Assembly: GCA_002256025.1 (NCBI GenBank)
Contig: NKIB01014098.1
Span: 1-47,776 of the forward strand
Length of the DNA: 47,776 nucleotides
Source: Asterionella formosa
Lineage: Eukaryota
Direction of reading: 5' to 3'
Part shown: in pieces, positions 5,421 to 36,887 of the stretch
How the letters are laid out: the number at the start of each line of letters is the position of its first letter
Position numbering within the stretch: position 1 is the stretch's first letter
The notes under the pieces: generated by a model
Database searches by the model: none
What the model was told of the DNA's origin: nothing
The model's input: only the letters and a program-made list of their open reading frames with translations
Made by a program: the position numbers and the translations under genes

Positions 5421-5460
5421 CTTCCACGACATATCGTTGTTTGAACTTCTGAATCTATCG

Positions 5461-9480: not shown

Positions 9481-10769
9481 GGTTGTTTGGTTTGAATAAA
9501 CAAACAAACAACTATTCTCCAAATGCTGTTTGCATTTCTAGAAACATACAATCATAGATAGACCAATGTCTATCTCACACTTACTGATCATAGGTTTACA
9601 ACCATTGATCATTCATTTCAAACTATCGGTCTTCCAAAATAGCTTATATCGTCCGGCTCATTATGGCTGGAGCAACAACGTTGAACGTGTGGTTGATGAG
9701 AGCTTGGTACATCAAAGTCGACTCATTCGAATCTTTTACGTAGGTGAGGTGTATGCATGGACACTCTATACTCCGAGATATACGATTTTATATGCTATGT
9801 GCATTGAATCCTTTCGACATATTCAAAATCATTTAATATATATATATATTTAGATTCCACATCGCTTAATGTGCATAAGATACACCAGTACTACAATCTA
9901 TACTCCGATCGACGAGTATGTGTCATGTATACGACCCGGCGGCTCGGCAAATATTTGAAAGTGCATTCAAGGACCGGTACGCGTATGTCCAATGATGATC
10001 ATCAACTGGGGTACTGGTACCAGGTACCCGTCGTGAATATAGGACGGGACTGTCAGTACTCCCAAGAAAATGTTACATGTTTATCCAATGTGGCCGGCGT
10101 GGGTTTGCAATACCTCGCAAACCAGGCCAATCAAACAGAGGAATGTAATTCACCTTCACCAATCATATTAAATATGTGGAAGCGGGCACTTACAATGGAA
10201 TTTTTTGGACAGGAGATTTTATGACTGAAAATTCCGGCACACGACTACCATTCCGATGATGACGTTTCGGCACTTAATAATTCTGATTCCGATATTTTGG
10301 CGACCGCCGTAGAAAAGGCCGATTTTGTCGAGTTTTTGGATGACGATAGCGAAACCTTGGCTGGGTCTGACGGCGATTTAGATACAGGTACATAGGTAAC
10401 TTTCAAATAGCATCAGTATATAACTTCTGGCGAGAAACTACAGAAAGGAACTTCGTTTTTTTTACTATGCCAAATAAACAGATTTCCCCCGAATTTTCGA
10501 GTCTTTTTAGCATAGTTAAAAAACGAAGAAGTTCCTTTCTGCAGTTTCTGACCAGATCCTATATACTGACGATATATAGAGTGGACCTACACCCGACTTT
10601 GTCCGACGACTGTATTTAAGCATACCGGTATGGAAAGGGTGTCTATTGGTGAAAGCTCCGTTGAGCGTCATACATATTTGATTTATATGTGGAAAGTATG
10701 TGTTTGATTAGTCTGACTCAATATTGTTTTTAAACCCTACCTCGAGCTAGGGGTTCAAATCCAGCAACC
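9481..10769 (+). mobile_element. Non-autonomous TIR element, copy 1 of the hairpin-bearing Kolobok-like family
   Basis: About 10125-10769 aligns in blocks with 21560-22070 and with the reverse complement of 36037-36600. It ends in GCAACC. The putative left end TTTA|GGTTGTTTGGTTTGAA resembles the reverse complement of the right end, GGTTGCTGGATTTGAA. The left boundary is tentative. Confidence 0.55.
10413..10569. repeat. Long imperfect inverted repeat (hairpin, ~65-bp arms)
   Basis: TCAGTATATA..TCTGG..AGAAACTACAGAAAGGAACTTCGTTTTTTTTACTATGC pairs with GCATAGTTAAAAAACGAAGAAGTTCCTTTCTGCAGTTTCT..CCAGA..TATATACTGA. Confidence 0.9.
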
Positions 10770-11168
10770 TGCCTTGACAAATTAGCTACGGTGCGGGTGC
10801 CGTATTTACCGGTGAACCAGCTGATAACCCCAGAGGTCTAGAATGCCGAGCTCCCGACCCAATCAGCTCTGTGTACCACACAGTACCGGTAGTGACTGGC
10901 CGTAAATTTAGACACGCCGCAAGTGACTTACCGGTACTATGGTATGTATGTACGTGCGTCTGGGAATTACTGAACACCGGCCGACATCATATTCCGGTAT
11001 GACTTTTGGCTGCGTTCGGCTGCAAATTTGAGGGTGCCATAATTTCAAAGGTTGCTATCAATTTTAAGTTTTTGTCATCGAGCCACTCTTGCTCCCATTC
11101 ATACTTTCAATCGTAAATTTGACTGCATTTTCATTACAATCGGCCTCACACGAGATCTTGACAACATA

Positions 11169-12608: not shown

Positions 12609-14544
12609 AATGCAGGAACAAAAGTATCAACCATCCAAAATTCTGCAAGATTTCAAATTACCGTGTTGCCTTCCTCTGAGGAATTTTAAGAATTAATCAT
12701 GTTTCCTTCATTTCTCTGAAAAATAACAGTAGCTACTGTTTAGGACTTAAATTGGAATGTGTACAGGAATGACACTCATGTACTGCATGGTCACCAATGA
12801 AGTTCTGGTACAACATGTAGGGCAAAAACAAGAATAGGAAAAACAGGATTCATTTTGCCACCATTCTAGCACAAAAGGTGAATGCAGCTGTAGTTTGCAA
12901 GGAACATATAGCTGGTTAAGGATGTCTACGTCTGTAAATAAAAATTATCATGAATATAGGATCAAGGGTATCGTACGCTAAGTGGCACGGGATTTTTACA
13001 TACATGATAGTTTTTTGATCAAAAATATGATCAAAGTATCATATAATTATGATCATGCAGTAAACTTTTACCGAGCTTGAAGTATGATGATACTATCATA
13101 TTTATAATACCAGTGCATCATATAATTAGTTAAACATGGTCATATGATGTGTATACTTTTGTCATACATCTATCTTAGCATGATCGTAATTCTCATCGAT
13201 ATCACTGACTAAAATAGGATAAAATTGATCGAAATTTAGAACTATATTTAAGAAAAGTTTTATGTTTCTATATCTTGAGTGGCTACAGAATGTTCTACAG
13301 TGCTCTCATCGCAATGATGGGTGCTTCAGCTTTCACTTCCACCTTCCCCCCTAATCCAATTCTGAAGGTTGTTGTACTGGTGGTTGCCTTGCCGTTGTTC
13401 CCCCGCTTTGTTCCATTTACTCCTGACGGATCTGAGTTTGCATTCACGCATTTTCATATTACTATTGAATCCGTTTCGTTGTTCCAATCAGCCATACTAT
13501 CAGCAAAGAGAAGCAATTCATTGTAAGCTGTTCATGTTTTGCTTACACAACAACATGCATTTTGCTTCTATCTTCACTGACCTTGCTTAGTAAGCAAGGT
13601 CAGCTACCTTAGATAGTAACTCCTTTTGAAAGTCAATGTGATCTCTTGATTTGACGTTTTAACTTGTTTCTGCTTTTCACTCATTTCATCATAGTTTCAT
13701 GATGTCTCTCTTGCTTTGAACAGTTTCACTGTGGTGAAATGGCGAAAAGACAATCAAGTAATGGAAGTTAGGCCAAAGAAGTCGATCCATTTACCATACC
13801 TATAATAATATTGCTTCACTTAGCTATATAGCGTCTTAAGAATATTCAATCCCTGGATACTAAAAGAGAACCCAACCCAGCATCAACAATGGCATGATGG
13901 CACGGTGGGTGCTGGTGAAACGCGGGGAAAAGGTTGATATAGTCCCTCTAATGGGAGTCGACAGTTGCACTGAGTTGGTGCAATCATGGTGATGTTGTAA
14001 ATACTTCCTAAAATCTCTATGGGAATTACCTCCCTGAGAAGAAAGTGGATAGCTTGGCTGGTTTGGACCCGGCCCTGGGGAGGGGGGCACGCTTGTTTTG
14101 TGGGCGGGTGACCCACTTCCCCCGCTAAGCTGAGATACTTGTGAAAATTTTCTGAATATATTGTTGGATAGTTTTTGCTACTAATTTCGCAGATTCCAAA
14201 AGAAAATCTGTTTTTTTCCAAATACTGAGGACGCTTTGTGTTCAGTTGTGCCTGAAGCATACTATCTCTAAGGGGAAGGTGGAAGAGATGTGAATCCCTG
14301 ACACAGATTTCGTTTCGTCTTTAGTACAGTCCTATCATTTTGACATCCAGGTCGGATTAAGCGATGCAGATAGTATTGTTGGCGTAATGAAGGATCTCAT
14401 TGCGCTCCTTCCACCCCTTCTGCCTTGGCAATCCATTTGTCCCCAACCACCTTTCGTGAAATGTGATTGTCTTAGCCCCAGCGTTAGGGGAAACTCCAAC
14501 CGCCTAGGAAGGCGGCACAAGACAAGACCGTGCAGAACGGTAAG

Positions 14545-15034
14545 TGTTGAGGATAAACGACTACTGTTAGCAGACAGTAGTATAACTATTACTGTAATGG
14601 CTGACTGCACAGTCTGCATGACCGACAGTCATGGTGAGGAATTCCATGGAACAAGAAGGTCAGTTCAGGAAAATATATGCGGGATTCGTAAATGGAATAG
14701 CAATTCCTACAGAGCAAGTCCAACATGCAAGATTAAATGATAAAACTGAGACGATTGGAATTGCAAATCGTATGAAATCGACCAATGAGAAAGAGTGGAT
14801 TGAGGTGAAGAACAAATCCAAGAAAGTAAGAGTCGTGAAACAAGATCAATTTGGCAGGATTGATAGAATTTGGTAAGATTGATAGAAAAATTAATCTGAA
14901 GTAATCACAACATTAAAAGAGGTTAATCTAACAGTAGATTAAAATGTTGTCGAAAACTAGTAGCTAGTGGAGAACTAGTAGTAGTGGACACTAGACGTGT
15001 AAGTACTATCAAGGAGATCTGGAACATCTCAACA
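14545..15034 (+). repeat. 5' LTR (490 bp)
   Basis: TGTTGAG...CTCAACA terminal inverted repeat; near-identical to 19961-20443. Confidence 0.96.
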
Positions 15035-15099
15035 CGTTTTTAAAAACGATTGTTTGTGGAAGTTAAGGTCACAAAGACAAGAAGTTATTGTGCAAAGGA

Positions 15100-18000
15100 T
15101 GAGTGAAGCAAAGAAGGCTGGAACAGTCCTGGAGTCGGTCAAGGTCATTCCTTTTTATGGAACTGACACTACAAAGGGGGGAGTTGAACCCCGAGAATTT
15201 TTCAAGAAAGCTGAGGTATTCGCTGCAACAAAGGGTTTCAAGAAGGTGTTACTCGAAGAATGAGTTCTTCCAAGCTGGGCAGAGAAAGAAGAGATGGAGT
15301 TGATGAGACAAGATGATGATGAAGCAAAGCATTTTCTTATTATGTCATGCAGAGGTGACGCTTTTGCAATCATTGAATCATATGAAAGAGCATACCAAAT
15401 GTTTCAAGCCCTCAAGGACCGGTACGACTCAAAGAAGACAAAAGATTTGGTAAAAGCAAAATCAAACTTGAAAAGTGTTACATGAAATCAGACATAGATG
15501 ATCCCTACCTTTGGATTGTCGATATGGAACGATTGAACAGGGAAGTGGAAAAGTGCGAAAATGGATCAAGACGCAATGAAGAGCAAATGCAAGCAACCAT
15601 ATTAGCAAGACTACCAAAACGAAGATATGAATCAGTGATTACATCTCTAAATGGAAAGATTGGTACAAAAGTATTTGACAATAAGGACTTCATTGCTGAG
15701 ATCATTGGCCATTATGAGATGATTGTGGAGCCATTCAAAAATCGTCAAAATCGCGGAAATCAAGTTCAAAGAGAGAACAAGCAAGGAAAGGGGAAAGCAT
15801 CTGGCTCTGAATACTACAAGTGGAAAAGGTGCCTGGAGAACCTTTAAAGGTAAATACAACAAGTGTGGAAGACAAGGCCACAGAGCAAGAGACTGCAGAA
15901 GCAATGGCAACAGCAACAACAGTGGAGAGAAAGACATTGAAAGACCGAAGGTGAAGTGCTACAGCTGCGGTGGATTTGGACACATTGCAAGAGATTGTCC
16001 AAAGAAGGAAGAGTCTGGTATGTTTGTTGGTATGACAATCCATGGACCTGATATTCGGGAGGATGATGTAAAGAAGAATCAAGAAGCTAAAACAGAGTAT
16101 TTTGACACAAATAAATTCGCAACTGAACTTTTGCAAGATATTGCAGACTATAACAGGAAGAAGAGAAGTGTCTTGAAAGACATAAGAGAATTTAAGTGGA
16201 AACCAAGAAAATACAACAAGTTCCAACAAGTGAAAAGCCAAAAGAAGAAAGTAGAGAAAAAGACCATGAGCTGGGCTGATATGTGTGAGACAAGTGATGA
16301 GGAAGAATATGACGATGTCGACGAAAATGAGAACAGAGGAATTGTTGATGAGAAAGAAATTATTTACCAGATGGAGAAAACAAGCCATGGAGCAGAATGG
16401 ATGTGGGATGAGGAAGTTTTTGCTACAAATTCATTGAAAACCATGATCCCTGTCACAGAGAGTGGACATGAAAGCTGGCTTGTTGACGCAGGGGCAACAA
16501 CCCATGTGTCCATCAGCACTATAAAAATGAGTAATTTGCAGACTGCAACTGAAGGTGAGCATGTGAGGGTTGGACACAATGAAACCCTTAAGGCAACAGC
16601 GATTGGTGATTTAACTCTGGAGCAGAAGGACACAAAGAAAACACTGAAATTGGAAAAAGTGATGGTTGTTCCCGGTTTTGCTCGAAATTTGATAAGTGTT
16701 GGCAGGTTGACAGAGAAAGGAAACGAATTTGTGGCTGGAAAAGAAGGATCCAAGATATTTAATGATTCTGGTGGCATCATGAGTTTTGAGACAGGAACCG
16801 ATGGTATGGCTTATCTGATTGCACAGCGTGCTGCTGGAGCAAAAGAGGTCTACAATATTTAAGAAATTAAAAATGATGATGGAATGATTAAGAAACAGAA
16901 GAGAGATCTAATGAACATTGATGAGGCACACAGAAAACTTGGGCATGCAACAGAAAAAGTGGTGCAAAAAATGCTGCAAGCACTTAAGATCATACCAGTT
17001 GGAAAAATGTTGGTGTGTGATGGCTGTTCACAAGCAAAAGCTACCCAGAAACGAACAAACAAGGTGCCTACAGTGGTAGCAGAAAAACCTGGCGAGAAAA
17101 TCTATATGGATACAAGTGGCCCATATTCAGAGACAGTGATGGGGTCCTGTTATTGGCATAAATTTGTTGATGACAAAACAAGGAAGTCATGGGATTTTTA
17201 TGGAGCAAGAAAAAATGGCATAACAAAGGTACTGAAGGAAATTTTGGACAAGTTAAAGGCTGCTGGGAAGCCAGTAAAATATCTACGGTGTGACAATGCA
17301 GGCGAGCATATGTTTGAATTACGAAAAATATGTGAAGGAGAATATGGAATTCAGTTGGAGTACACAGCACCTCACACACCGCAGCACAATGGAGTGGTGG
17401 AAAGGATGTTTTCACGTGATGCAAAACGTGCGCTCCTGGCAATGATGATATCTGCTGCATGGACCAAAGAGATGCAGGCTAAATTATGGGCTGAAGCGAC
17501 AAAAACAGCAGCGATACTAGGAAATTCCCTTCCAAACACCCGAAGTGCAGTACCACCTGATGAGTTATTTTATGGAAAACCAAGTGACATCTACACACAC
17601 TTGATTGAGTTTGGAAGAGTTGGTTATGTTACAAACAGGTCCACAATGAAAGGGAAGTTCAAAGAGAAAGCAAATCCCATGGTAATGATTGGCTATGGTG
17701 AGAACCATGCCAGGGATGTGTATCGTATGTACAATCCAATAACCAGTAAAGTGGTTGAAACAAGAGATATTCATGCTTGGTGGGCAGCCAGACATGACGA
17801 ATGCTACCAACGAAATCAGATTGACTATGAATGAAATTTATGACCCTGAGTTGATTTTGGAGGAGCCAGAACCTCCAGAAGTGATTGAAGAACCTGATGA
17901 GGACAGTCCTCCTATCCATATAATCCCCACATATGAGGATAAATTGGCAGAATCCACATCGAACCTGGATTTTCCATTGTCTGGAGCAGGGAGGATGTAT

Positions 18001-20288
18001 GAGGAGGAAAAGAAAACTTTAGAAGAACAAGACTCAAGAATTGAGCAAGAATATGAAGAGGATGATGAAGAAAGGAGTGATGAGTCAAATTCGACGCAGA
18101 CAGACGACAGTGATGTTGATGACTTGCCAGAAATTTATAAAAGAACAAATGCTACAGAAATGGAAATGTATGGAGCAGATGATATTACTGTGGAAGCTGG
18201 TGAGCAAGAAGCTGAGAGACCACAACTCAATTCGACAAGGTTGAAAAATGAAATGAAACGGCTGGGAATTGAAGTGCCAATCATGATTGAAGATGGTGAA
18301 ATTGGAATAAGAACACGCAGTAAGACGGATCAAGTGGCATTTAATGCAACACTAGTGTCAGATCCTGGAGAACCTAAGACATTTCGGAAAGCCATGGATG
18401 GTAAAACCCGTGACAAGTGGGAACCATCAGCAGGAGCAGAAATCAATAACCTTTTATCAAGAGATTCATGGCATAAGTTTCCAAGAAAAAATTTCAAGGA
18501 TGGTAAGCCCATACCTGTGAAATGGATATTCAAGGTGAAGGAGGAACAAGATGGTTCAAAAAGGTTCAAGAGCAGGATTGTGCTGAGGGGCTATGTGATG
18601 GTCCCAGCAGGAGTGGACTACACGGAGTCTTTTTCGCCAGTCGCAAAAGATACAACAGTCAGGACAGCAATTGCTATGGCTTTATATCGCCAGAATGAAG
18701 AATGGACAATTGAGATGATAGACATCGAAGCAGCATTCTTAAATGCAGAACTTGAATCAGATAGGCCAGTGTATGCAGAATGGCCAGAAGGCTTGGTGGA
18801 ACTTGGATTTATCACAGAAGAAGAAAAGAAGGAGTTTTGCATCAAACTGACAAGAGCCATTTATGGTGGAGTCAATGTACCGAGACTTTATATGAAGACA
18901 CTGTGCAAATACTTAACAAAGGAAATGAAGATGACTCAGAGCTTGGTGGATCCATGTTTATATTACTGGAAGAGTAAATTGGATGAAGTCACTCTGATGG
19001 CTGTGGTACATGTTGATGACGTTTTATTGATTGGAAGAAAGACAAAAATTGAAAAGTTCAAGTTGGAAATACAGAAGAGGTTTAATATTTCGGATTTGGG
19101 AAGATTGAAGAAGCATCTTGGTGTAAGATATGAATGGAAAACTGATAAAAATGGTGAAATCTACATTGTGGGTAGTATGACAAAGTTGGAGGATGAAATT
19201 GTTGAGTCGTTCAAAAATATAATTGGGAAGAATGCATATTAAGGAGACAGAGACACCAGGATATCCAAAAAAGTTTCTCAGGAAGAATCAAGGAGAGCCA
19301 GTAAAAATGACGGAATATCGTTCTACTATGGTTGGAAAAGTAATGTATTTGATGACAAAGTTGGAAACAGATTTGGCAAAGCAACCCTGCACGAGAGTTG
19401 ACACAACATCTGTCAAACCCAGGCGAGGAGCACTGGAAAGCACTTGAAAGACTGGTTGGACACATTAAAGCAAGATACTATGATGGGTTGACATATCAGA
19501 GCCCAAAGGAGCTGAGGCGTTTTGTCTGGTCTACATACAATCGGTGGTACATTGGTGAACTGGGAGTCAAAGACACAACATGTAGTTACATTGTCAAGCA
19601 AAGAAGTGGAGTATATCAGTTTGGCAAAAGGAGCATGTGAGAACAAGTTCATATCCATGCTACTTGAAGAAGTGATGCAATATCCAAAAGAAGAGAAATT
19701 GGTTTGGCGTGTATACAAAGACAATTTAGGAGCTATCTATTTGATCTGGTAAAGAACCAACATGTGGGTGCACGGGCAAAACATATTGATGTCAGGGCAC
19801 ATTTCATCCGAGAACTTGAAGATCAAGGATATTTGATGGTACATTTTGTACGATCGGAAGAGAACTCAGCTGACATACTAAGCAAGAACTGTCCCAAGAA
19901 GTTGCACACAAAGCACGCAGCAAGGATAAGAAATGGGAATCTTGAATGTTGGAGGGAGGATGTTGAGGATAAACGACTACTGTTAGCAGACAGTAGTATA
20001 TCTATTTCTGTAATGACTGCACAGTCTGCACGACCGACAGTCATGGTGAGGAATTCCATGGAACAAGAAGGTCAGTTCAGGAAAATATATGCGGGATTCG
20101 TAAATGGAATAGCAATTCCTACAGAGCAAGTCCAACATGCAAGATTAAATGATAAAACTGAGACGATTGGAATTGCAAATCTTATGAAATCGACCAATGA
20201 GAAAGAGTGGATTGAGGTGAAGAACAAATCCAAGAAAGTAAGATTCGTGAAACAAGATCAATTTGGCAGGATTGATAGAATTTGTTAA
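15100..20288 (+). pseudogene. Copia gag-pol polyprotein interrupted by stops and frameshifts
   Basis: Consecutive ORF fragments in changing frames. Stops at 15261 and 16860; frameshifts near 15470, 15790, 17780, 19230, 19380 and 19745; an apparent deletion at the RNase H start near 19520. Confidence 0.9.
19951..19960 (+). other. Polypurine tract
   Basis: GGAGGGAGGA immediately before the 3' LTR TG. Confidence 0.9.
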
Positions 20289-20443
20289 GATTGATAGAAA
20301 AATTAATCTGAAGTAATCACAACATTAAAAGAGGTTAATCTAACAGTAGATTAAAATGTTGTCGAAAACTAGCTAGTGGAGAACTAGTAGTGGTGGACAC
20401 TAGACGTGTAAGTACTATCAAGGAGATCTGGAACATCTCAACA
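19961..20443 (+). repeat. 3' LTR (483 bp)
   Basis: Differs from the 5' LTR by about 7 substitutions and two indels of 4 and 3 nt (counted by eye). Confidence 0.96.
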
Positions 20444-20445
20444 AG

Positions 20446-20553
20446 TAAGGAGTGTGGGAGTCGAACCCAACGATTGCTTCTAAAAAATTGCGGGAATCGA
20501 AGCTCAGAACCTCAGATAAAAGGCAACGTCCTAAACCACTAAGCCACTCCCTG
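20446..20553 (-). repeat. Degenerate tRNA-like element (probable SINE head)
   Basis: The minus strand reads GGGAGTGGCTTAGTGGTTTAGGACGTTGCC...GCTTCGATTCCCGC...GCAATCGTTGGGTTCGACTCCCACACTCC: one A box and two B-box-like motifs. No clean cloverleaf. Confidence 0.55.
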
Positions 20554-21016
20554 TGTCAAAAGGAAACAAGCTGATGGCTGGAAGTATGCATAAGAGATGT
20601 ATAGTATTTAGATTTAGATGACGATAATGAAAAGATTGGATGATTGAGCAAAAATCGAGATTTCCTGCAATCTTAAGTTACAGGGGAAATAGTTGTGATG
20701 ATGCTCTTGAGCAATATGAGGGTTACCATGGTATTTCATTTGTGACTGCTAAAGAGGGAAATGAAGAGTGGAACAATTAAAGGTTGTAAACAGTTGTTGT
20801 AACTTATTGTAATGCAATCATGTTACATACACTGATTGTGATCCGATCATGGTTGTTGCCATGACGTTGCAAGGTGGTGAGGCATCAGCAAACTTGCAAG
20901 AAGTCGAAAGGTTCTTCATTCACTTTCTATTTATGCATAGATTTTGATTCAGCAAATCGTCATCTGGCTGTCAATAAGAGTCCCATTTTCCAATTTTCTT
21001 ATGGAATATTAATTAA

Positions 21017-22179
21017 GGTTGCAGCCCCGGTTTAATCCTAGTTTGGAGAAAATATCGCTAGGGTTATAAAACCGGCGTGGAACAGAGAGTTTCCTACTAT
21101 GAATTCCCATGATTCAAGTGTCCATTTGAATATTTGAATTAAAAAGGAATCGGCGCCAGATTAATACTAGAATTCCATTTGAAACAAACAAAAATGATAT
21201 TTAAACGTTAATACAATATCTTCATTGCTGAATGTAGACATGATTTTGCTCTACGCCAAAACACATATACAAATCAGGAGTATGCCAACGTGTATGCTCA
21301 TGGTTCGTGTTTATACGTTATATTGAATCTACGCTGCTGGATGTTAGTTTAATAAAGATCAGCACGGTACCAGGTACTGAAGTACCAGAGTACCGGTGTC
21401 CCGGCACCTGGTAGTACATATTCTGCTAGGTTCATGATGATGGAAGACAGGATGAAACTAGTGCCAGTATAATGGTACTGATTTTACCTGCTGGTAGTGT
21501 GTACATTTAATACGTGTGGTTCAAGTGTGGCTGGCGTGATTTTACAAGACCGGAATACTTCAGCCAATCTGGAGCAGGTAAGTAAATTCAATTCAACCAA
21601 TCAGAATATGAGTAATGACGCGGCAACGTACCCTGGAGTCTTTTCGGACTGGCTGAGAGTTAGGGACTAAGCAGCAAAACATACCTACGCAAGACTCTAA
21701 GTCTACTAGAACGTTTAGAATATACAAATTACGATTCCAATATTTTGGCGATTGTTGAAAAAGCCGATCGGGTCGACTTTTTGGAGGAGGATTACTCTAC
21801 ATCTGCGGGTTTCATCAATATTAAAGTAGATAGCCGTGTACCCTGTAACGTCAGGAATTAACTTCTGGAGAGAAACTGCAGTTATGTATCGTAGATTTTT
21901 AGAAAGCTTCGTAGCCCCTTTTTTGCGATTGCTACGATTCTACGATACATTACTGCAGTTTCTTTCCAGAAATGAGGTCCTTACCATATCCGAAGATAGA
22001 ACATACCCCTAAGTCGACCCATGACTGTATCTAAGCATGTGCAAAGTGGTCATATTGGTGAAAGCTAATTTTACCTTTAACTACTTTATGTAATTGTACG
22101 TAATGTGTGGATTAAGGTACATCATATAATGATTTTGGGAAAAAAGGACCTCACAATGTGTAACTGCAGGGCCGCAACC
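21017..22179 (+). mobile_element. Non-autonomous TTAA-flanked TIR element (Kolobok-like), copy 2
   Basis: TTAA|GGTTGCAGCCC ... GGGCCGCAACC|TTAA (TIR 10/11; TTAA at 21013-21016 and 22180-22183). GG...CC termini with a TTAA target fit Kolobok rather than piggyBac. No transposase is present. Confidence 0.72.
21863..21971. repeat. Long inverted repeat (33-bp arms, 2 mismatches)
   Basis: TTCTGGAGAGAAACTGCAGTTATGTATCGTAGA / TCTACGATACATTACTGCAGTTTCTTTCCAGAA. Confidence 0.92.
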
Positions 22180-22873
22180 TTAAATCGAAAACCGGTCAAT
22201 CTTGTCTGGCAGGCATGGGATGAATCATTGAGAGTGAATTGTAACTGAAAAGGTGCACACAAAATGTGCGCTACCGGACCTTACCTTCATTGCATATCGC
22301 TCCTCATCTCCAAATAAATACCCATATACCGGTAAAATTACCAGTTAAAAAGCTTACCGCTACAACGACTGTTGAACTGTAAGCCACTGCTGCTAAATGA
22401 AGTAAATGCATGGTTTGAACTAAGTTTACAAGATACGCCAATTATTTTCACAAAGGAGTTGCTCAGCTGTATATATGGAGTAAATACTTATGTAATTGTT
22501 GCATTTTGTAAGTTGTTAATTACTTATTACTGCCCAAAGGTTGCTGTCAACACCCCGAAATTGCAAAAAATGGATATTTTCACATTAACTCTATTGGGCT
22601 GGCATCGCCGATTCTCCACCTGTATATATACAAGAATAAAAATATTCTTCTGATAGAATTTATTCAATATAATTATTAAAAAAATTATACATGGATAGGA
22701 CATCATTGTGCTTTTAAATACACTATGCTGCGTCAGAAGAATTTGGTGATGATGCAAGGAGCGCAAAAAGCATACCCATACTGTATCGCACATAACAGGG
22801 AAAGTAATATACAAAAAGAATTTCTGTATTAGTATAAACGGAGTAATAACAATCACGGTTAGGCTGAAACTTA

Positions 22874-23976
22874 CGGTGCACGAAATACGAAGATCGAATA
22901 TTGCAAAGCTATCATGGCAAAATCTTCGATCTTCGTATTTGGGAAATTTTATGGCCACCTTACGGTCCCAAAGATTAAATAGTATGTCAATCCATACGTC
23001 AAATGACCAATCTCGAGAATTGAAAATTATTTCCTAAATGAAAATTAGTGGTATCGTCCACAGGAATATTATAGTAATTAATTATAATGAAAATTGTCAA
23101 CACTCAATGCTCCATCATCATCATTGCTGTTGTTGATTTAAGGTGATCGGCCTTCACATCGTCCTATCTCCTTTCTCCTCTGCTCCCACCACCAGTATCT
23201 CTCTATTATCACAATGGCGACTGAAGGACCAACAGAATACTCAACTGAGGAGGAGCATTCCTTTTGCAACCATATTCGATATTGGATAAGCAGCCCCATT
23301 CAAGTGCACATGCTTCGAAGTGTGCAGATTGCCATTATATTTGCTGCTGGTTGTGAAATTCAACACAGGTTTGCATCTAGGGAGGAGAAGAAATTTCGAG
23401 ATATGGCTGAAGCGTATTTTCGAATTCTGGATGAAGACCTTGAGGATGATTTTCCAAATGGAACTGAGAAACCAGCTCATTTCGCAACGCAGCTGGCAAG
23501 GCTGCTGGTAGTTGCCTCCATGGCTGTACACACAGTTGATAATGTGCCAGGAAGGTTGACTATAGCATTAGCGGAGTCGTCATGTCACAAATTATTATCA
23601 TAACAAAAATATTAAAAGTAAGAATTATTATTTTTATAATATCTAGGGCAATAATAATGACAATACTACTACCGGTACAATAGAAGTGTTGAAGTACCGA
23701 ATACTATATCATCAGTATATGTGATGACGACTATGTATTGTTTCCGCCATTCTGATTGGAAGAGACAATCCTTGTTTGCCCGAAGATTGTTCAAGAAAAT
23801 GAAAAGATTGGGTCAATATTAGGGACGACCCTCGAAATTTTCGGGCGAACGAAGATTAATCTTCGTAATCGGGGGGGGGGGGGGGGGGTGGGGGGGTATT
23901 TAGCCCGTAATGGACGAAAATACGAAGATTAAACCCCCAACATCTGGGCGACTGAATCTTCGTAATTCGGGCACCG
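22874..23976. mobile_element. Non-autonomous TIR element with TA flanks (Tc1/mariner-like) and subterminal CGAAGAT repeats
   Basis: TA|CGGTGCACGAAATACGAAGAT ... ATCTTCGTAATTCGGGCACCG|TA (19/21 match). CGAAGAT/ATCTTCG motifs cluster at both ends, and a G18-T-G7 tract lies at 23871-23896. Confidence 0.8.
23214..23603 (+). CDS. Hypothetical 129-aa protein carried inside the TIR element
   Basis: ATG-initiated intact ORF (context ACAATGG), flanked by AT-rich sequence. No recognisable domain. Confidence 0.45.
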   Translation: MATEGPTEYSTEEEHSFCNHIRYWISSPIQVHMLRSVQIAIIFAAGCEIQHRFASREEKKFRDMAEAYFRILDEDLEDDFPNGTEKPAHFATQLARLLVVASMAVHTVDNVPGRLTIALAESSCHKLLS

Positions 23977-24580
23977 TAAGACGGGGCCTTACCGGTAGGG
24001 GGGAAATATATGCATGTACCAAAAGAAAAATGCCGGGTATGCGCTCTTATAAGCCACGGCTATACAACAATCTTGATGACTTTGAAAAAAATAGATCTTC
24101 GTAGCACCTCTCCACACTGAATCAAAACTAATTACTTATTCGTTGAGTACCGGTAGAGTGCATAGTTACCGGTATACCGGTAGGCAGCTAGAGCATTTCC
24201 TATACTCACTCGTACGTCACAATATACAATGCTGTTTCTTGATCCCCACCGCCTGCCAGCTCGTTTCCACAGACACATGAATGCATAATTCTAAAATACA
24301 ATTTATTCAAAAATAAATACTTTTAATATAAACAACCGAAAATATGTAAACGTTCATCGCAGGCAGGCTTCTATATAAAATAATATTACCGTTTCGCAAA
24401 GTTAACAGGCAATATATACACATGTTGTTTTACACGGATTAGTGCTCGACACCCTCGCCGCTCACGACGGTAGGCAAGCGCAGGAACACAACGAATCACT
24501 CTCCTATCGCAACTTTCCTCTTGGTGGATCTGTGAAACTAACAGCACAATTCAAACCTGCATACCTTCCATTAAGGCAAG

Positions 24581-27500
24581 ATGGCAACATCGTTGTCGCA
24601 GTCCACTGCGGCCTCCGCCAAAAGTCGATATCTGGCGGCGCTGCATGGGGATTCTGCACCGGTAGAACTCAAGGTCAACAGGTCGCCAAACCAATATTCG
24701 AAAACCAGCGCAAAGGATGTAGCAGCTGGTTCCTCTCGAGGGGTGCTAGCGTCCTATCCCCCTCCACCGCCGCCGCCACCGCCACCTCCCAAGGTTGCGA
24801 AGAATAGCATGCATAGTGGTAGCGAACGAGTCCTGGCGAGATGGCAGGTGGCGACGGCAGGTGAAAAGTCGTTGCAAGCGAATCAGAAGTCAACTGGTTT
24901 TGTCGCAAACATCGTGCCCCCTCCTCCTCCGCCGCCGCCCCCCATTGAGGACAAGAAAAAGAGAATGTCGCCTCATTTCATTACCAAGTCGGAAGTACCC
25001 AGTTGGGTCAAGAAATCTAGCAGCATTGAGGACGAGCCGAACGCTGGACATGGCGGCATCAAGGATGTGCCAAGGAATTCTGTGCAGACTTCGTCCTTTC
25101 TACAAGCATCACTTAATTTGACCTCGCAAAATAGTTCCTCTATTCCAAATGAACAGCGGCAATGTGTAGTTTCGCAGTCTCCCCGGAAGTTTCAAGTGAA
25201 CCAGTCTACGTCAGCTCCTGAATCGCCTCGCAATCAATGGGACACCAAAGAGATTCCTGTCGGTGTAGTCAGCCATATAAACAAAGACAAGTTTCTGAAT
25301 TTTGAAAGTCAGAACACTGGCGTGGAGAACCGAATGATGTCCCCACAGTTGAGACAGATGAAATCACAGTGGATGCCAGACGCTGAAATCCCCCCTGGCA
25401 CTGTCAGCGGTCGCAAGGCTGCCTTTATCGGCGGCACTGCTTCAGACAAGAAGACAAGTTTATCTGGTTCGGGTAAGCCACTCGATTTGCTTGGCGCGGG
25501 AAGTACCAAATTCGGTACGCTTACTACGGATGACCCAGCAATGCAACATCTGACTGCTCCTCCAACAACGACAAGTGTTTCTACTCGAGATGTAGGACGA
25601 AGTACTTTTGGGTCTGGGAGCCTCAGCGCCGACAGTGCACTTGACATGCTCGTACCACAAACAGCGTCCCCGCGAAGGCTGGCAGAGCCTCCTACGCCTA
25701 CCCCCGACAGTGTTTCTGCACTAGAGATTGGACTTGATACTTTTGGGTCTGCGAGCGTCAGCTCCGATAGTGCTCTTGATATGCTCGCACCACAACTATC
25801 TTCCCCACTAAGTCTGGCAGAGCCTACCATATCTCCCCACAAAAGTAATGTCGACGACCCCAGAGAATCGGATCCCTGGAGTGTTCCGATTGTAGCGTCG
25901 GGGCATCCTTGTTGGGGTGACGAAGATGTACCCCAATCCACGTCGCAAGACATTTGGGACGACGGTCATGATTGGTTCGGTGAAAATAATGATGGCGATG
26001 ATGAAGCCGATAACGATTTTGTTGACAAAGTACTCATGTCTCCCACTAATGACACGTTGGAAAGCAGCGAAGTGTACCTTTCAGAGAGTAATAGCGAAGA
26101 TGATGCTTTCGCTCAAGTGATGAGCACACGGTCGTCAACTTCAAATTCGCTGATGAATATTGTGAATTCACAACTTCATTCCTCGAATGCTCATCGTCAT
26201 ATGCCGCCTATTTTGACTATCTCGGAATCTATGAGTAGCCCACGGTCTGCTGGACCGGTTGACGTGGACGACAGTTGCAGCGACGAAAATGGGGACGACC
26301 CGGAGGAGGATATTGTCAAGATTCTACCCAAGATAGCGCTTTCTCTGACAACTGCTAAGTCGACAGCTCCTCCCTCTCTTCCTGTGACTCCGATTGCTGC
26401 CATCCCAAGTCAACATACTTCTCTTGATGTCGCGATTGAAACGCCGACACTATTCTTAAACAGTCCGGAGACCACGGAAATTGATGAAAACGTTTCTGGG
26501 GCGATTCCTCTCAAGGCTGCGGATGAAGAAGAATTGTTCGTTGTGCAATCTGATGTGAAGAAAAAAGAAGGCAAGAAGCGGCGTGGGATCTTAAAATTTT
26601 TTGGTATCAATAAAGATTCTTTCAAGAAGAAGGACACGAAGGAGGTAAAAAACAACAAGAATCTTGCCAAGTCGAAGAATACTCGTGGTGGAAAGGATGT
26701 GCGTGGAAAGACCGTTCACGATTCGGATTCAAAACAGCTTGTTGAGGGCAGCAAGCAAGATGACCGTGCTGGGCCAGTTGTTCCTGTCGTAACTTTGCAA
26801 GAAGAAAGGAGCTCAACCAAAGAACCAGTGACGGTGGATGAACTTGTAGTCCCATTAGAAACCGCCCATGATATGAGAGCTGTGCTTGTGCCTCTAAAAA
26901 CTTTACCCGAGTCAAGTTCAACCAATGGCAGACCTACCAAAACTGCCAAGCCGTTTTCTATTGAAAACAACCCAGCTGACGATGGACAAGAAAATGTGAA
27001 AACTAGTCCTTCGAAGCCTAGCCATTTTTCGTATCAAACCGGATTAGACGATGGGTCCATTGTCTCGGAAATGACAAACCCAACAGTCTTTACCAAAATC
27101 AAAGCTTTAGAAGCTTTGGAAGAAAAATCTTCTGGACCGAGTGTAGTAGAAGACTATGCAGTAACAGTTGCGCCAAAACCTGTACTGTTAACAGAGGAAA
27201 CGGCAAATAACTTGACAACCCGACAAGCTCTTGATCCCTTTGATCTGAACTCCCCTGTATTTGCTAGTGGCGATCCCTTCGGATTTGGAAACATGGATAT
27301 GTCCACTCAAGATGCTGACCCATTTGGCGATTTTTTTTTCGAGAGTGCGTCCGTATCAAGTCAGTTAACACCAAGGCAGTCACAACGCGCAGTAGAGCCG
27401 CTTTTAGCTCAATCTTTGCAAGATTCTGAACCGATCGCGGATTCTCGAATGCCATCGCTTGCTGTTAAGTCGTTTTACCAGGAAGTGCCAGAACAGGGTT

Positions 27501-30500
27501 TATCACCCAAGTTTGCAATCCGGGTGGAAAGCCCGAAAATTAATCTGGAGCCAGAAGAGCCGTTTGATTTCAGTGGCTCCGAGATTGACTTGAAGAATTC
27601 CGCTGAAATGGAGCCTCCGTCCCTCTCCCGCAAACCTGACCCAATCCAATCACCTCTCAATCATGTACCAATTGACACCATCCCCGTTGTGGACGGTGAT
27701 TCTGATCCTGAGATTTACATGGCTTCCACCGATGAAGAGGAGGAGAATGGTATTCATTCAAATGAAGTTGAAACCCTGAATCAGCGACTTTCTGTTTCTT
27801 CGGGAGGGCTTCCTCTTGCCTCGCTAGTTTTTAATAATGGCGATTCCCTAGATCTCAATAAGAATTCGCCAGATTGTACTCCACGAAGAGGCAGCCATCG
27901 AGACATTTCAAAAATTTCCATTCGTAGCAGGAATCCCGAATTACAGGTAGAGACTGATGACAGATCATGGTCTTCTCCAGTTTCACTCAAATCAGCTAAT
28001 GAAGCATGTAGTATGCCCTCCAAGGACCAATCATTCGATTCAAGTGCTGCTGTGTACCCTTCTCAAAGTGCTGCGCTCAACAACAAGCTTCGAAAGAAGC
28101 GCATGGAAAAGAAATTGCGAAAGGCGGGGATCCTAGATGAAAAGGCCCAAGAAAACGACGTGTATCAAACCTCACCTTCCCCAAGGACCGCCCCCTTGAG
28201 AGCGTCAATATCTTTAGGAGTCCAAGAAGATTTTTTAAAAAACGAGAGTACAGAAAAGGCAATAGAGCATAGCTCTTCGCCTTCCTTGACGACCACCGCC
28301 CCTTCAGTTTTGACTACACGTTACTCTAACTCCTCTGTTCCTCCACGGACTGAACAAGTGTCATTATCTCCTAAGGCGGGGAATGTTGACGACGCGATAT
28401 CACGGTCTATTGTTAAAGCCATGGTACCAGACAAAGAATCAGACGCCGTCTCTGTGATTTCTGGAACTTCTACGCTTAGCCGTGATGCAATGAAGATTAG
28501 AAGACCTGCCAAAAACGATTCCTCCGAAGTAGTAGAAGTTTTGGCAAAAGGTACCAATAGAAATTTGCCTCGATCGATTCTTCGGAAGCCTAATCGTGCG
28601 GTTGCTGAAGCCGACAAACCCGCGCTTGGCTTCGATGAGAATAAAGTCACGGACCCCATGCACCGTGCTGGTCTTCGCTTGCTAGCAGCTGCAGTGATTC
28701 CAATCCAAGCTGCAATTCGAAGATTCTTAGCAAAGCGTGAAGCTCTTAACCGAATGTGGGCCATTGTTACTATTCAGACCTACACACGTCGTTGGTTCGT
28801 ACAAAAGCAACTAGCGGACAAGAACAATGCTGCAATTACAATTCAGAAAGTTTTTCGTGGTTGGTTTGCTCGAGATTTTGTAGAAGATCAACACTATTGC
28901 GCAACACAGATCCAACGAGTTGTACGGGGGTACTTTGCGACATTGGCAGTATATGAAGCAATATACAAAGTTACACTTATTCAGAGCTACGTACGCATGA
29001 AGATCGCGGTCGACGAAGCAACATATAAAATGGCTTTTATCATCCAGCTTCAGTCAATAATTCGAAGCTATTTAGTCCGCAAACAGCGGCAACGGCTCGA
29101 CGCATATGCTACCGTAATCCAAAAATCATGGCGCTGTCATGCTACAAGACAGAACTATCAATTTGACGTCTTGGATATTGTCCTAGTTCAATGCCTGTAC
29201 CGTCAGAATAAGGCTCGTGCGTTGGTAGAAAAGAAACGGCAAGAGCGCTTTGTTAAATGCGCCACGATTTTGCAGGCACAATGGAGATCCTATGATTGCA
29301 CAATGAATTATCTCCATTACCTAGCTGATGTACTCATTGTACAGAGTACGATTCGGCGATGGACTGCAGCCACTCATGTTAGGAAGTTACGCAATCAATT
29401 GAACTTTTCGTCTGCAAGGAAGATTCAATCTCAAGCCAGAGGATTTATAGTCCGCAACAACATCCAAAGGATCAACGCTGCTACATCTATTCAAACGGCG
29501 TGGAGAGGGTTTGTTTGTTATGCTGACTATATGTTTACTATTGCAGATGTTGTGATCGTCCAAACTTGCATGCGGTCTTGGCTGGCAAGAAGAGAATCCG
29601 ATGCAGTTCGCCTGGCTCGAGACAATGAATACATTAAGCCCTTGCAAACACTTTGGCGTGGTTATAATGCTCGACAGAATTTCATTAGCTACAGAAAAAA
29701 CGTGATACTCTCCCAGAGTGTGATTCGTCGTTTCGTTGCATGGAGTAAGTATATGAAGGCCCTCACTGAGAAGTATGCAGCTGAAACTATCCAGCGTGGG
29801 TGGTGGGATTACCTCATACGTCGTGATGAGCGATATGCTGCTACTAGTATTCAAAGAGTTTGGAGGGGTTATCATTGCCAAACACTTTATAAAGCCGAAA
29901 TTCATGATTTTCGCGCTGCTCGTACCATTCAAACAGCGTGGCGAAAATTTTGGTTATTTTCCAATTTTATCATCATGTTGGATAGCGCTATTCGTATACA
30001 AGCGATTGGTAGAGGGTTTGTTGCTCGAAACCATATGGAAGAAATGAATATTGCTGCAACAATGATTCAAAGTCATACCCGTTGCTTTCTTGCCCGAAGA
30101 ACTGCTAGTAGAATGTCGATGATTGATGCAGTGATGTCATCAGGACGTGCCATTGCTGGAAACGAGACAAATGCAGCAATCGCGCTGCAAAGTCATGTTA
30201 GAGGATTTCAGGCGCGCTTTGCTGTCTTGCTGTTCCTTAAGGTCAGATTGATCCAGGCGTTCTGGAGGGGTACCAAAGAACGGCATGCATGGGTGATTTA
30301 CCGGTCGTCACGAAAGATACAAGCTGCTTGGCGAGGTTCCATTCCGAGGCGCTCGTATAATCAGTATCGTGCCGCTGTTCGTATTCAAAGTTGCTGGAGA
30401 CGTGCAAGCGCTCGCGATGAATACGTGAAGTATACGTCACCATCAAGTGCAGGAGTTCGTATCAAGAGGTGGTTGATCTTCCGAAGGGACAATAGTAACT

Positions 30501-36036: not shown

Positions 36037-36887
36037 GGTCCTTGCATTTGAACCCCTATTTCAAACTAGGGTTTTAAAATAAAATTGATTCAGAGTAATC
36101 AAACACGCTATTTTCATGAGTGGCAGAAATGGATATGTCTAATACTCTTAATCAAGCTTTAATAATTTGATACCCCTTTTGTATACTTTGTACTAACAGT
36201 CATTGTCAAATTATGGTTATACTAGGTCAATTCTAAATAATGAAAGGATCAAGAATCTGTTTAGAAAGTGCGGAAAGAATTTTTTTACTATACTGAAGGA
36301 CTAGAACATGGATCAAATGGATTATTTGGAATATAGTTAAAATACCAAAGTTCCACCTTTCTTGCCAGAAATTTTTACTATTATAAAATGAAGGTTAATT
36401 GTGTGTTATATTTAAATTCAAACCCCACCAATATTGAGCAATCATTATCTGAAAAGTCAACGAAATTGGCCTTTCCAGCAGTCTCCAAAACATTGGAATC
36501 AGAATCATCTTTACTGGTTCCTAGTACCAAAACATTCTCATCAGAGTAGTAGTCTTATGAGGGGACTTTTAGTTCTAGAATCTTGAGCATTTATACCATA
36601 GTTGAAATTTCTACAGATTTAAATCATTCAAACAGAGTCAATGTTGCTCATAATAAGCTTGTAAAAATTTCCAGGTTTTCCAAGGAAATTCCGCAACCCT
36701 AATGATTTTTGACAATTTCTTGTTTACTAGCATCTAACATCATTAATGTCTATGTAGTCAAAGAATAAAATCCACCATCCATGCATTCTCACTAGGTCAA
36801 GAATAGTACTCTGGCAACAGTTCACTGAATACTCAAAACATAATCTTGAAATTCCAAGCTTTGAGCTCCACAAAAGGCAGGCAGACC
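36037..36887 (-). mobile_element. Copy 3 (inverted, more decayed) of the hairpin-bearing Kolobok-like family
   Basis: TTAA|GGTC...GACC|TTAG ends. The reverse complement of 36440-36510 matches 10281-10350, and the reverse complement of 36037-36110 matches 10698-10769. A residual hairpin lies at about 36255-36370. Confidence 0.62.

What the first reader, a model, noticed from the sequence alone, without database searches (positions are those of the whole stretch)
21017..22179. Dispersed Kolobok-like element family with a shared internal architecture (3 copies in 27 kb)
Seen: 9481-10769 (+), 21017-22179 (+) and 36037-36887 (-) share ordered blocks. These are GATTCCnATnTTTTGGnGA..GAAAnGCCnAT..GTnGAnTTTT, then a long hairpin bounded by TTCTGG..AGAAA / TTTCT..CAGA, then GACTGT..AAAG..TATT..TnAAAGCT. 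Each also has a small CCTA..TAGGGTTnTAAAA hairpin next to one terminus. Copy 2 has clean TTAA|GG...CC|TTAA ends. The copies are strongly diverged yet keep the same layout. Established: a TTAA target with RR..YY termini is the Kolobok signature. Inference: an old, abundant, probably uncatalogued non-autonomous family under structural constraint.
Basis: partly seen in the sequence, partly recalled or inferred. Interest (0 to 1): 0.7.

Follow-up and report, generated by a model that had tools for sequence, protein, structure and literature searches.

The report
Gene-less Kolobok transposon copies in a diatom
The three repeats are real, gene-less copies of a very abundant cut-and-paste Kolobok transposon, and the layout they share is simply the tail end of the full-length element they derive from, so this is a fairly ordinary mobile element with one unexplained conserved hairpin.

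Summary
Copy 2 (21017-22179) is complete, with TTAA|GG...CC|TTAA ends. Copy 1 is 5'-truncated (9750-10769, not 9481). Copy 3 is 36037-36742 (not 36887).

Metagenome contigs hold 14 related loci. Two of them carry the full-length partner. It is about 3.9 kb, with a 23-bp inverted end GGTT[C/G]CTGCATTTGAACCCCTAG and TTAA flanks. It encodes a small cysteine-rich protein related to KolX/P2X7-tail proteins and a 794-residue transposase with the Kolobok signature.

The shared blocks are the last 550-750 bp of that element:
- the end of the transposase gene;
- a 72-nt intron;
- a last exon encoding an acidic tail (the most conserved block);
- a hairpin just past the stop codon, with a stem of about 40 bp and compensatory changes;
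- the 3' end.

In the run that best holds the window (X1), more than 100 distinct contigs cover each of copies 1 and 2. Summed depth there is a few hundred to about 1000 times that of neighbouring single-copy bins.

The Kolobok reading is supported, and this is a new member of a known kind. The scan had already noted a two-gene Kolobok elsewhere in this genome (e1-7564089). The hairpin's role is open, and no census of the genome itself or Repbase/Dfam comparison was possible.

The parts
21017..22179 (+). Copy 2: complete non-autonomous Kolobok element, 1163 bp
   Evidence: TTAA at 21013-16 and 22180-83, with GG...CC termini. Its 5' 220 nt align to the 5' end of the full-length element (z 14). 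Its 3' part aligns to L004 and L012.
21017..21039 (+). Copy 2: 5' terminal inverted repeat
   Evidence: Arms 21013-21027 and 22169-22183 are 93% complementary. Aligned with the 5' ends of L005 and L002.
21037..21066 (+). Copy 2: small subterminal palindrome CCTAG...CTAGG
   Evidence: The same feature lies beside both ends of complete relatives.
21578..21663 (+). Copy 2: remnant of the transposase gene's last intron (GTAAGT...TTAG)
   Evidence: Homologous to the 72-nt GT...AG intron of L004 (4176-4247) and of L003 (702-773).
21664..21861 (+). Copy 2: remnant of the last exon (acidic C-terminal tail, ...DSNILAIVEKADRVDFLEED...) with its stop codon
   Evidence: Open frame. Its peptide profile finds 18 metagenome ORFs. 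Third-codon-position excess against L004: differences 5, 5, 13.
21850..21984 (+). Copy 2: long hairpin just past the stop codon
   Evidence: -64.1 kcal/mol, z -11.1; covariation.
22023..22066 (+). Copy 2: conserved 3' block GACTGT...GAAAGCT
22164..22179 (+). Copy 2: 3' terminal inverted repeat
9750..10769 (+). Copy 1: 5'-truncated non-autonomous element with no TTAA at its 3' flank
   Evidence: 88.6% identical to L002 positions 234-1226. 9481-9780 is unrelated to the element's 5' end (z 1.8). The flank reads TGCC.
9958..10140 (+). Copy 1: remnant of the end of the transposase's large exon
   Evidence: tblastn places transposase residues 739-789 at 9958-10134, 49% identity.
10141..10212 (+). 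Copy 1: 72-nt intron remnant; the 5' splice site is mutated (GAATGT)
10213..10395 (+). Copy 1: last-exon remnant, with an in-frame TGA at 10222-10224
10407..10575 (+). Copy 1: long hairpin
   Evidence: -68.4 kcal/mol, z -10.7.
10608..10657 (+). Copy 1: conserved 3' block, carrying a 6-nt insertion at a TA (10623-10629)
10735..10769 (+). Copy 1: subterminal palindrome and 3' terminal inverted repeat (10747-10769)
   Evidence: 1 mismatch to the consensus end.
36037..36742 (-). Copy 3: decayed non-autonomous element, flanked by TTAA at 36033-36 and 36743-46
   Evidence: (z 12.7 against the parent's 5' end).
36384..36554 (-). Copy 3: last-exon remnant
36256..36369 (-). Copy 3: decayed hairpin
   Evidence: z -1.4. 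Same position and outer stem as in the other copies.
36155..36201 (-). Copy 3: conserved 3' block
36037..36059 (-). Copy 3: 3' terminal inverted repeat (3 mismatches to the consensus)

Best explanation
The three repeats are internal-deletion (non-autonomous) derivatives of a two-gene Kolobok cut-and-paste DNA transposon.

The full-length element is about 3.9 kb. It ends in 23-bp inverted repeats (GGTT[C/G]CTGCATTTGAACCCCTAG), each followed by a small palindrome, and it duplicates TTAA on insertion. It encodes a KolX-like cysteine-rich protein of about 150 residues and a DDE transposase.

The copies in the window keep about 140-240 bp of the 5' end and the last 550-750 bp. What looked like a shared internal architecture is that 3' portion:
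- the last codons of the transposase's large exon;
- a 72-nt phase-0 GT...AG intron;
- a final exon encoding a conserved acidic tail;
- a hairpin with a stem of about 40 bp, starting some 25-30 nt past the stop codon;
- a conserved subterminal block;
- the inverted repeat.

Inferred: the copies are moved in trans by transposase from full-length elements that recognises the shared ends. The exon stays conserved between sublineages because it was under protein-level selection in the full-length parents of each sublineage.

The hairpin is kept complementary by selection or by arm-to-arm correction. My odds for its role:
- an element of the transposase transcript's 3' untranslated region (stability, 3'-end formation or a double-stranded-RNA trigger), about 0.4;
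- a DNA-level signal needed in cis for transposition, about 0.3;
- no function, about 0.3.
For: Ends:
- Of 13 ends that match the consensus inverted repeat with at most 5 mismatches in the window plus 14 loci, 10 are flanked by TTAA and 12 begin with GG.
- c2 has TTAA at both ends and c3 at both ends.

Full-length partner:
- L005 has a TTAA|GGTTCC 5' end and L004 a GGAACC|TTAA 3' end. The two are 99.8% identical where they overlap.
- They carry a 164-codon and a 794-codon frame on one strand.
- L002 is a complete 1226-bp derivative with perfect 23-bp inverted repeats plus TTAA. Its positions 7-239 match the parent's 5' end (85%) and 470-1226 the parent's 3' end (81%).

Transposase:
- Pfam PF20700, E 5.4e-43.
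- In an alignment of 28 relatives the invariant or near-invariant columns are D311; C350/C353/H366/C368; D406-408; D458xxH461; H520/H525/C528/C533; N584-E585.
- That is the order PMC9587614 (sections 3 and 10) gives for Kolobok.
- Of 63 relatives, all carry PF20700. More distant ones are fused to an exonuclease (RNase_T, Exu_RNase_H_like), as described for KolobokD (PMC9587614, section 11).

Second protein:
- Its profile reaches 71 proteins at E<=0.001 in 1.84 billion.
- Of the 24 distant hits I scanned, 16 match Pfam P2RX7_C at E<=0.01 and 9 pass Pfam's cut-off.
- hhalign between the two sets gives probability 99.5%.

Intron and exon:
- GTAAGT...CAG, 72 nt, in L004 (4176-4247) and L003 (702-773).
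- Protein P0011 lacks exactly these 24 codons and reads through into the tail.
- A relative only 31% identical also ends in an acidic tail after a CCHC knuckle.

Hairpin:
- 93.8% of cells are paired, against 37-50% when the partner columns are slid.
- 14 of 39 pairs changed on both sides, and 0 of 500 shuffles reach the observed values.
- There are 13 G-U cells against 3 A-C cells on the sense strand.

Abundance.
Against: - The full-length element was found only in metagenome contigs (78-89% DNA identity to c1, 80% to c2), not in the window's own genome, which is not held. A look-up of earlier notes with the transposase found nothing alike.
- c1 has no TTAA at its 3' flank and no 5' end. Among the 13 consensus-matching ends, 3 lack TTAA.
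- No joint skipping c1 or c2 (an empty site) was among the 15 joints listed; 311 more were not shown. Mobility is therefore inferred from structure and copy number alone.
- The transposase shows no THAP domain, which PMC6004289 says Kolobok transposases usually have.
- The second protein itself matches no Pfam family and no solved structure by sequence. Its link to P2RX7_C is transitive.
- The covariation rests on about four lineages, mostly on one split (c2/L012 against the rest).
- P0011 may be an intron-less DNA copy rather than a spliced transcript. I could not fetch its contig.
Confidence: 0.88

Rival explanations
1. The copies belong to piggyBac, the other eukaryotic superfamily that duplicates TTAA.
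For: TTAA flanks. The parent's transposase has an acidic, Ser/Asp-rich tail, which is loosely reminiscent of piggyBac termini (recalled, not tested).
Against: The termini are GG...CC, which PMC9587614 (section 3) gives as the difference from piggyBac. The linked transposase matches PF20700 at 5.4e-43 and no other transposase family at E<=1. It also has the C/DxxH motif followed by a zinc finger, as in Kolobok.
Confidence: 0.02
2. The family is a Mutator-like (MuDR/MULE) element, as the name of Pfam PF20700 ('Mutator-like transposase') suggests.
For: Pfam names the matching family 'Mutator'. Kolobok, MuDR, P and hAT share the C/DxxH motif (PMC9587614, section 3).
Against: The duplication is 4 bp and specifically TTAA, whereas MuDR makes 8-11 bp (recalled). 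A zinc finger lies between DxxH and the last E, which PMC9587614 (section 10) says is absent from MuDR, P and hAT. The best PF20700 matches among relatives are exonuclease fusions of the KolobokD type.
Confidence: 0.03
3. The hairpin has no function. It is either an old palindrome or a nested palindromic mini-element, and its arms stay complementary by arm-to-arm correction (template switching or gene conversion) rather than by selection.
For: - Young copies have perfect or near-perfect stems (39 of 39 and 38 of 39 Watson-Crick pairs in L002 and L004), as expected from recent homogenisation.
- Some derivatives have lost part or all of it (L006, L011, L013).
- The c3 hairpin has decayed.
- A TTAA or near-TTAA lies at the left foot of the stem in L004 and c2.
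Against: - It sits at the same place in four diverged lineages, including the full-length element.
- The right foot has no TTAA.
- In the loci and the window I saw it only within family copies; the two arm-only hits, in L008, lie in a second copy that abuts the first.
- 14 of 39 pairs changed on both sides.
- G-U outnumbers A-C by 13 to 3 on the sense strand.
Confidence: 0.3
4. The conserved block is kept because the short copies themselves express a useful peptide or regulatory RNA, not because of their ancestry.
For: The tail frame is still open in c2 (65 codons) and in many metagenome copies.
Against: - c1 has an in-frame TGA and a dead 5' splice site.
- L002, L001 and L006 have a stop inside the block.
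- c3 has no upstream exon.
- The RNA run shows little cover of the copies' interiors. That is weak evidence, as these are contigs only.
Confidence: 0.03

Closest known systems
Kolobok superfamily, two-gene Kol0 group (type Kolobok-1_XT; transposase plus KolX), as described in PMC9587614
   Same: TTAA duplication and RR...YY termini. A DDE transposase with C/DxxH and a zinc finger before the last E. A second small protein related to the P2X7 cytoplasmic tail.
   Different: The host is a diatom-type alga, whereas the paper lists Kol0 only from animals. [quoted passage not shown] The second protein is too diverged to hit Pfam P2RX7_C directly. No phylogeny was made here.
Xenopus T2-MITE families and their XKol partners (PMC6004289; passages read)
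   Same: Short, gene-less, high-copy Kolobok derivatives with a TTAA target and purine-purine termini, split into long-lived sublineages.
   Different: The T2 ends carry an AGGRR motif and are much shorter elements. Here the copies are 0.7-1.2 kb deletion derivatives that still carry the parent's last intron, last exon and a 3' hairpin. XKol transposases have a THAP domain, and none was detected here.
KolobokD (Kolobok with a DEDDh exonuclease; PMC9587614, section 11)
   Same: Its transposases are the more distant relatives found here (25-29% identity, PF20700 plus RNase_T/Exu_RNase_H_like). They share both zinc fingers.
   Different: The element described here has no exonuclease. It has a separate upstream KolX-like gene.
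Kolobok records from diatoms (Fragilariopsis cylindrus in Repbase per PMC9587614, section 3; a RepeatModeler class in Cyclotella cryptica, PMC7466962, passage read)
   Same: They show that Kolobok elements are already known in diatoms.
   Different: No sequences of those records were available, so identity with or distance from them is untested.
piggyBac
   Same: TTAA target duplication.
   Different: Termini and transposase family differ (see rivals).

Membership tests
Kolobok superfamily | 4-bp target site duplication, specifically TTAA (PMC9587614, section 3) | tested here: met
   10 of 13 consensus-matching ends are flanked by TTAA. Adding five diverged ends (c2 both, c3 5', L013 both) gives 13 of 18. 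Three of the rest differ by one letter.
Kolobok superfamily | Termini 5'-RR ... YY-3' | tested here: met
   GG...CC in 12 of 13 ends. The exception is L004's altered 5' tip, GA. c2 is GG...CC, and c3's decayed 5' end reads TG.
Kolobok superfamily | [quoted passage not shown] | tested here: met
   D311, D406-408, D458xxH461 and E585 are invariant or near-invariant in 28 sequences. This was tested on the metagenome partner, not on the window's genome.
Kolobok superfamily | Zinc finger between C/DxxH and the last E (nearly all Kolobok have it; absent from MuDR, P and hAT; PMC9587614, section 10) | tested here: met
   H520, H525, C528 and C533 are near-invariant.
Kolobok superfamily | THAP DNA-binding domain (usual but not universal; PMC6004289) | tested here: not met
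   No THAP match at E<=1 in Pfam.
Kolobok superfamily | Placement of the DDE core within Kolobok in a tree with reference families | not testable with these tools
   No Repbase references could be brought in. Indirect support: exonuclease-fused relatives of the KolobokD type.
Kol0 group of Kolobok | Second protein KolX, related to the P2X7 cytoplasmic ballast domain | tested here: met
   The link is transitive. The profile of the 152-residue protein reaches proteins of which 16 of 24 scanned match Pfam P2RX7_C at E<=0.01, 9 of them above the cut-off. hhalign gives 99.5%. Direct Pfam and PDB searches were negative.
Non-autonomous derivative of this element | Same ends as a full-length element and no transposase of its own | tested here: met
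Non-autonomous derivative of this element | A full-length partner in the same genome | not testable with these tools
No genome is held.
piggyBac | piggyBac-type termini and a piggyBac transposase | tested here: not met
   GG...CC termini. The transposase matches PF20700 only.
MuDR/MULE | Long (8-11 bp, recalled) target duplications and no zinc finger between the second D and E | tested here: not met
   4-bp TTAA. The zinc finger is present.

The most novel reading that the evidence does not exclude
The hairpin with a stem of about 40 bp, placed just past the transposase stop codon, is a selected cis element of this Kolobok lineage. It could be a built-in double-stranded-RNA trigger that lets the host's small-RNA machinery (or the element itself) limit copy number. 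Alternatively it could be a DNA signal that the transposase needs. Because hundreds of gene-less copies carry it, they would spread the same hairpin into host transcripts across the genome.
Probability: 0.2. Interest if true: 0.6.

Novelty: new member of a known kind. Interest (0 to 1): 0.3.

Why it matters
The report turns an unexplained 'shared architecture' into a plain annotation: a high-copy Kolobok family and its gene-less derivatives, probably a sizeable share of this alga's repeats.

It also identifies the likely full-length partner, with intact reading frames that are widespread in environmental assemblies (a 90%-identity cluster of 159 sequences).

It adds a KolX-bearing Kolobok from a diatom-type host to a group described from animals.

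It leaves one testable oddity, a conserved and covarying hairpin in the 3' untranslated region.

Tried and rejected
- Whole-genome search: no genome is held.
- Earlier notes by place or by sequence: nothing.
- My first guess was that the CCAAT-rich stretch upstream of the block was a promoter and the block a first exon. I rejected this once L004 showed that the stretch is an intron and the block the last exon.
- Second protein:
  - PDB by sequence and by profile gave no P2X7 match.
  - Pfam on 20 members gave nothing relevant.
  - The AlphaFold model had mean pLDDT 42.9, too poor for a fold search, so none was run.
  - The ESM Atlas gave no named neighbour.
- Rfam: only a sub-threshold likeness of the c1 hairpin to a long plant microRNA precursor (44.5 bits against a cut-off of 200) and a weak tRNA-Sec-like match at E 0.45. 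I treat both as chance.
- Repeated subterminal motifs apart from the inverted repeats and the hairpin: none convincing.
- Literature:
  - 'PF20700' occurs in 0 papers.
  - Yuan and Wessler 2011 (PMC3093488) is not held.
- Read laying:
  - No joint skipping c1 or c2 among the 15 listed.
  - The RNA run X11 gave only patchy contig cover of the copies, which says nothing either way about expression.

Full report
**1. The observation**

The window is eukaryotic. It holds a Copia-type LTR retrotransposon, genes with introns and 1451 masked N. No genome is held for it. Earlier notes of this scan call the organism a freshwater diatom, which I did not check.

blastn of each claimed copy against the window:
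- c1 and c3 match at 65% over 576 bp (E 6e-20).
- c2 shares only a block of about 69 bp with c1 (77%, E 1.6e-8) and with c3 (74%, E 2.6e-5).

The long hairpins of c1 and c2 are far more stable than shuffles, with z -10.7 and -11.1 and 0 of 200 shuffles as good. That of c3 has decayed (z -1.4, 19 of 200). c2 is bounded by TTAA|GG...CC|TTAA exactly as stated.

**2. Relatives elsewhere and the full-length partner**

The conserved block is an open frame in all three copies. A profile of the three peptides found 18 unnamed ORFs from environmental assemblies. A scan of metagenome contigs with an alignment of those ORFs gave 14 loci.
- Eleven loci carry short elements with the same layout.
- L002 is complete: 1226 bp, perfect 23-bp inverted repeats, TTAA on both sides.
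- L004 (5472 bp) and L005 (3784 bp) overlap at 99.8% and together show a full-length element of about 3.9 kb.
  - L005 has the TTAA|GGTTCC 5' end and L004 the GGAACC|TTAA 3' end. L004's own 5' tip is altered.
  - A 164-codon and a 794-codon frame lie on one strand, followed by the shared blocks.
- L003 is a fragment of a second full-length lineage. Its transposase is 64% identical to L004's, and its tail region is c1-like (86-88%).

**3. Superfamily**

Ends:
- Of 13 ends matching the consensus GGTT[C/G]CTGCATTTGAACCCCTAG with at most 5 mismatches, 10 are flanked by TTAA and 12 begin with GG.
- Adding five diverged ends (c2 both, c3 5', L013 both) gives 13 of 18 with TTAA. Three more are one letter away.

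Transposase:
- The 794-residue protein matches Pfam PF20700 ('Mutator-like transposase') at 5.4e-43.
- All 63 relatives found carry PF20700.
- In an alignment of 28 of them the conserved columns run D311; CCHC (C350, C353, H366, C368); D406-408; D458xxH461; H520/H525/C528/C533; N584-E585.

PMC9587614 (sections 3, 10 and 11 read) defines Kolobok by TTAA duplications and RR...YY termini. It describes the C/DxxH motif followed by a zinc finger before the last E, which MuDR, P and hAT lack. It also describes a CCHC finger after the first D in some lineages.

The more distant relatives are fused to a DEDDh exonuclease with Exuperantia-like and PML_C domains. That is the paper's KolobokD. The Pfam name therefore does not argue for MuDR.

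No THAP domain was detected. PMC6004289 (passages read) calls that domain usual in Kolobok transposases.

**4. The second gene**

The cysteine-rich protein (152 residues counted from its conserved Met) has 47 close relatives without any Pfam family. Direct searches failed, and the structure model was too poor to use (pLDDT 42.9).

A profile of 11 members, searched against 1.84 billion representatives, gave 71 hits at E<=0.001. I scanned 27 of them with Pfam.
- Of the 24 distant ones (E 1.8e-6 to 8.4e-4), 16 match P2RX7_C at E<=0.01 and 9 pass Pfam's cut-off.
- The 3 closer ones match nothing.

hhalign between the two sets gives 99.5% probability over 87 columns. The second set had been picked by the first profile, so this is not fully independent.

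The protein is therefore a diverged KolX/P2X7-tail relative. That is the second gene of the Kol0 group in PMC9587614 (sections 3, 12 and 16, passages read).

**5. What the shared blocks are**

In L004 the transposase frame runs to a GTAAGT at 4176. A 72-nt intron ends in CAG at 4247. A last exon then encodes ...SDSDSDVLLTVEKADIVEFLDDDSSTLAGFEEELST and stops at 4419-4421. L003 has the same 72-nt intron.

Protein P0011 lacks exactly these 24 codons and joins the two exons in frame. It is either a spliced transcript or an intron-less copy; I could not fetch its contig.

Between the L004 and c2 lineages it differs at 5, 5 and 13 sites at codon positions 1, 2 and 3. That is a small sample, but it is the pattern expected of coding sequence. 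A relative only 31% identical also ends in an acidic tail after a CCHC knuckle.

The copies in the window keep different amounts of the parent:
- c2 keeps the parent's 5' 220 nt, the end of the large exon, the intron (GT...AG intact), the exon (open), the hairpin and the 3' end.
- c1 aligns to the complete derivative L002 only from that element's position 234. Of the parent's 5' part it keeps about positions 133-270. It has a dead 5' splice site and an in-frame TGA.
- c3 joins about 137 nt of the 5' end almost directly to the last exon. That is a different breakpoint and hence an independent deletion.

**6. The hairpin**

It begins 25-30 nt past the stop codon. Its stem has about 40 pairs, and L002 shows 39 of 39 Watson-Crick pairs.

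On an alignment of 11 copies (9 distinct rows, about four lineages):
- 93.8% of cells are paired, against 37-50% when the partner columns are slid.
- 14 of 39 pairs changed on both sides, and 0 of 500 shuffles reach the observed values.
- Most double changes lie on the split between c2/L012 and the rest.

On the sense strand there are 13 G-U cells against 3 A-C cells. Counting the shared L004-group cell once gives about 11 to 3, a weak hint of a sense-strand RNA.

An AATAAA sits in the loop in the c1 and L004 lineages, an AATAAT in c3, and none in c2.

The function is not shown. My odds are given under the best explanation.

**7. Abundance**

Contigs of four public runs were laid on 9000-23000 at 85% likeness.

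Run X1, which holds 85% of the sampled words and may be the source sample:

| Region | Summed depth per bin |
|---|---|
| c1 (9467-10867) | 0.62-1.17 million |
| c2 interior (21142-22075) | 0.64-0.96 million |
| Neighbouring single-copy bins (10868-12735) | 1.1-3.4 thousand |

Single positions are covered by 109-117 distinct contigs; the counter stops at 128.

Two lake metagenomes show the same contrast:
- X3: 3,342-10,594 against 0.7-26.5.
- X6: 1,132-3,463 against 5.5-14.2.

The tool warns that summed depth is not a copy number. I read it as 'hundreds of copies', roughly. The 3' halves are the deepest parts.

Contigs that switch between c1 and c2 at homologous points (10186/21618, 10589/22021, 10629/22038) confirm the register between the two copies. 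No empty-site joint was listed for c1 or c2.

**8. Comparison and novelty**

This is a Kolobok family with non-autonomous derivatives, a known kind. Kolobok is already recorded in diatoms (PMC9587614, section 3; PMC7466962, passage).

New in detail:
- a KolX-bearing lineage outside animals, whose transposase also carries the extra CCHC finger;
- derivatives of 0.7-1.2 kb that still carry the parent's last intron and exon;
- a covarying hairpin in the 3' untranslated region.

Two literature searches turned up no description of this family or of such a hairpin. The library is partial, and Repbase and Dfam were not available.

**9. Limits**

- The full-length partner comes from metagenomes, not from this genome.
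- Mobility is inferred.
- Placement within Kolobok was not tested by a tree.
- Supplements of PMC9587614 were not opened.

Noticed in passing
window 14545-20446 (+): Copia-type LTR retrotransposon with LTRs 95-99% alike and frames for gag/zinc knuckle, integrase and RVT_2. Contigs of three runs join 14521 to 20445. The sides are only 27-31 nt and the left point lies 24 nt before the LTR, so whether this is an empty allele is unresolved.
   Followed up: partly
window 10623-10629; also 10006-10040 and 21362-21420; L013 and L014 copies: Copy 1 carries a 6-nt TACCGG-type insertion at a TA that L001, L002 and the L004 group lack. GGTACC-rich tracts lie in the middle of c1 and c2, and similar inserts interrupt the exon block in L013 and L014.
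   Followed up: partly
window 9000-9737 and 12736-13669: Two other stretches with very high summed contig depth in run X1 (0.2-0.6 and 1.2-1.5 million). They are further high-copy repeats. The first abuts and probably truncates copy 1, since contigs run off at 9737.
   Followed up: no
window 414-1661 (-): An open frame of 415 codons matching the RmuC family (E 4.8e-48), a family best known from bacteria (recalled), in a eukaryotic window.
   Followed up: no
window 5461-7158 (+); L013 3857-4624: A frame combining a trypsin domain with a Hint module. A trypsin-like frame also lies near a family copy in metagenome locus L013.
   Followed up: no
window 24575-32077 (+): An uninterrupted 2500-codon frame rich in IQ calmodulin-binding motifs, with a 135-nt tandem duplication at 25574-25843.
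   Followed up: no
L005 5' end and L002 5' end (subterminal palindrome): The palindrome beside each end contains TTAGGG/CCCTAA-like words (for example GCTTAGGGTTGCC), as single copies rather than arrays. I recall this as the telomere repeat unit of many eukaryotes; it was not tested.
   Followed up: no
L006 533-979; L008 1145-1248; L003 954-1075: Family copies lie tail-to-tail or nested at a shared TTAA (L006, L008), and one has a tandem duplication of the intron-exon part (L003).
   Followed up: partly
relatives of the transposase (P0048): One relative fuses the PF20700 transposase domain to a Ulp1-type C48 peptidase domain.
   Followed up: no
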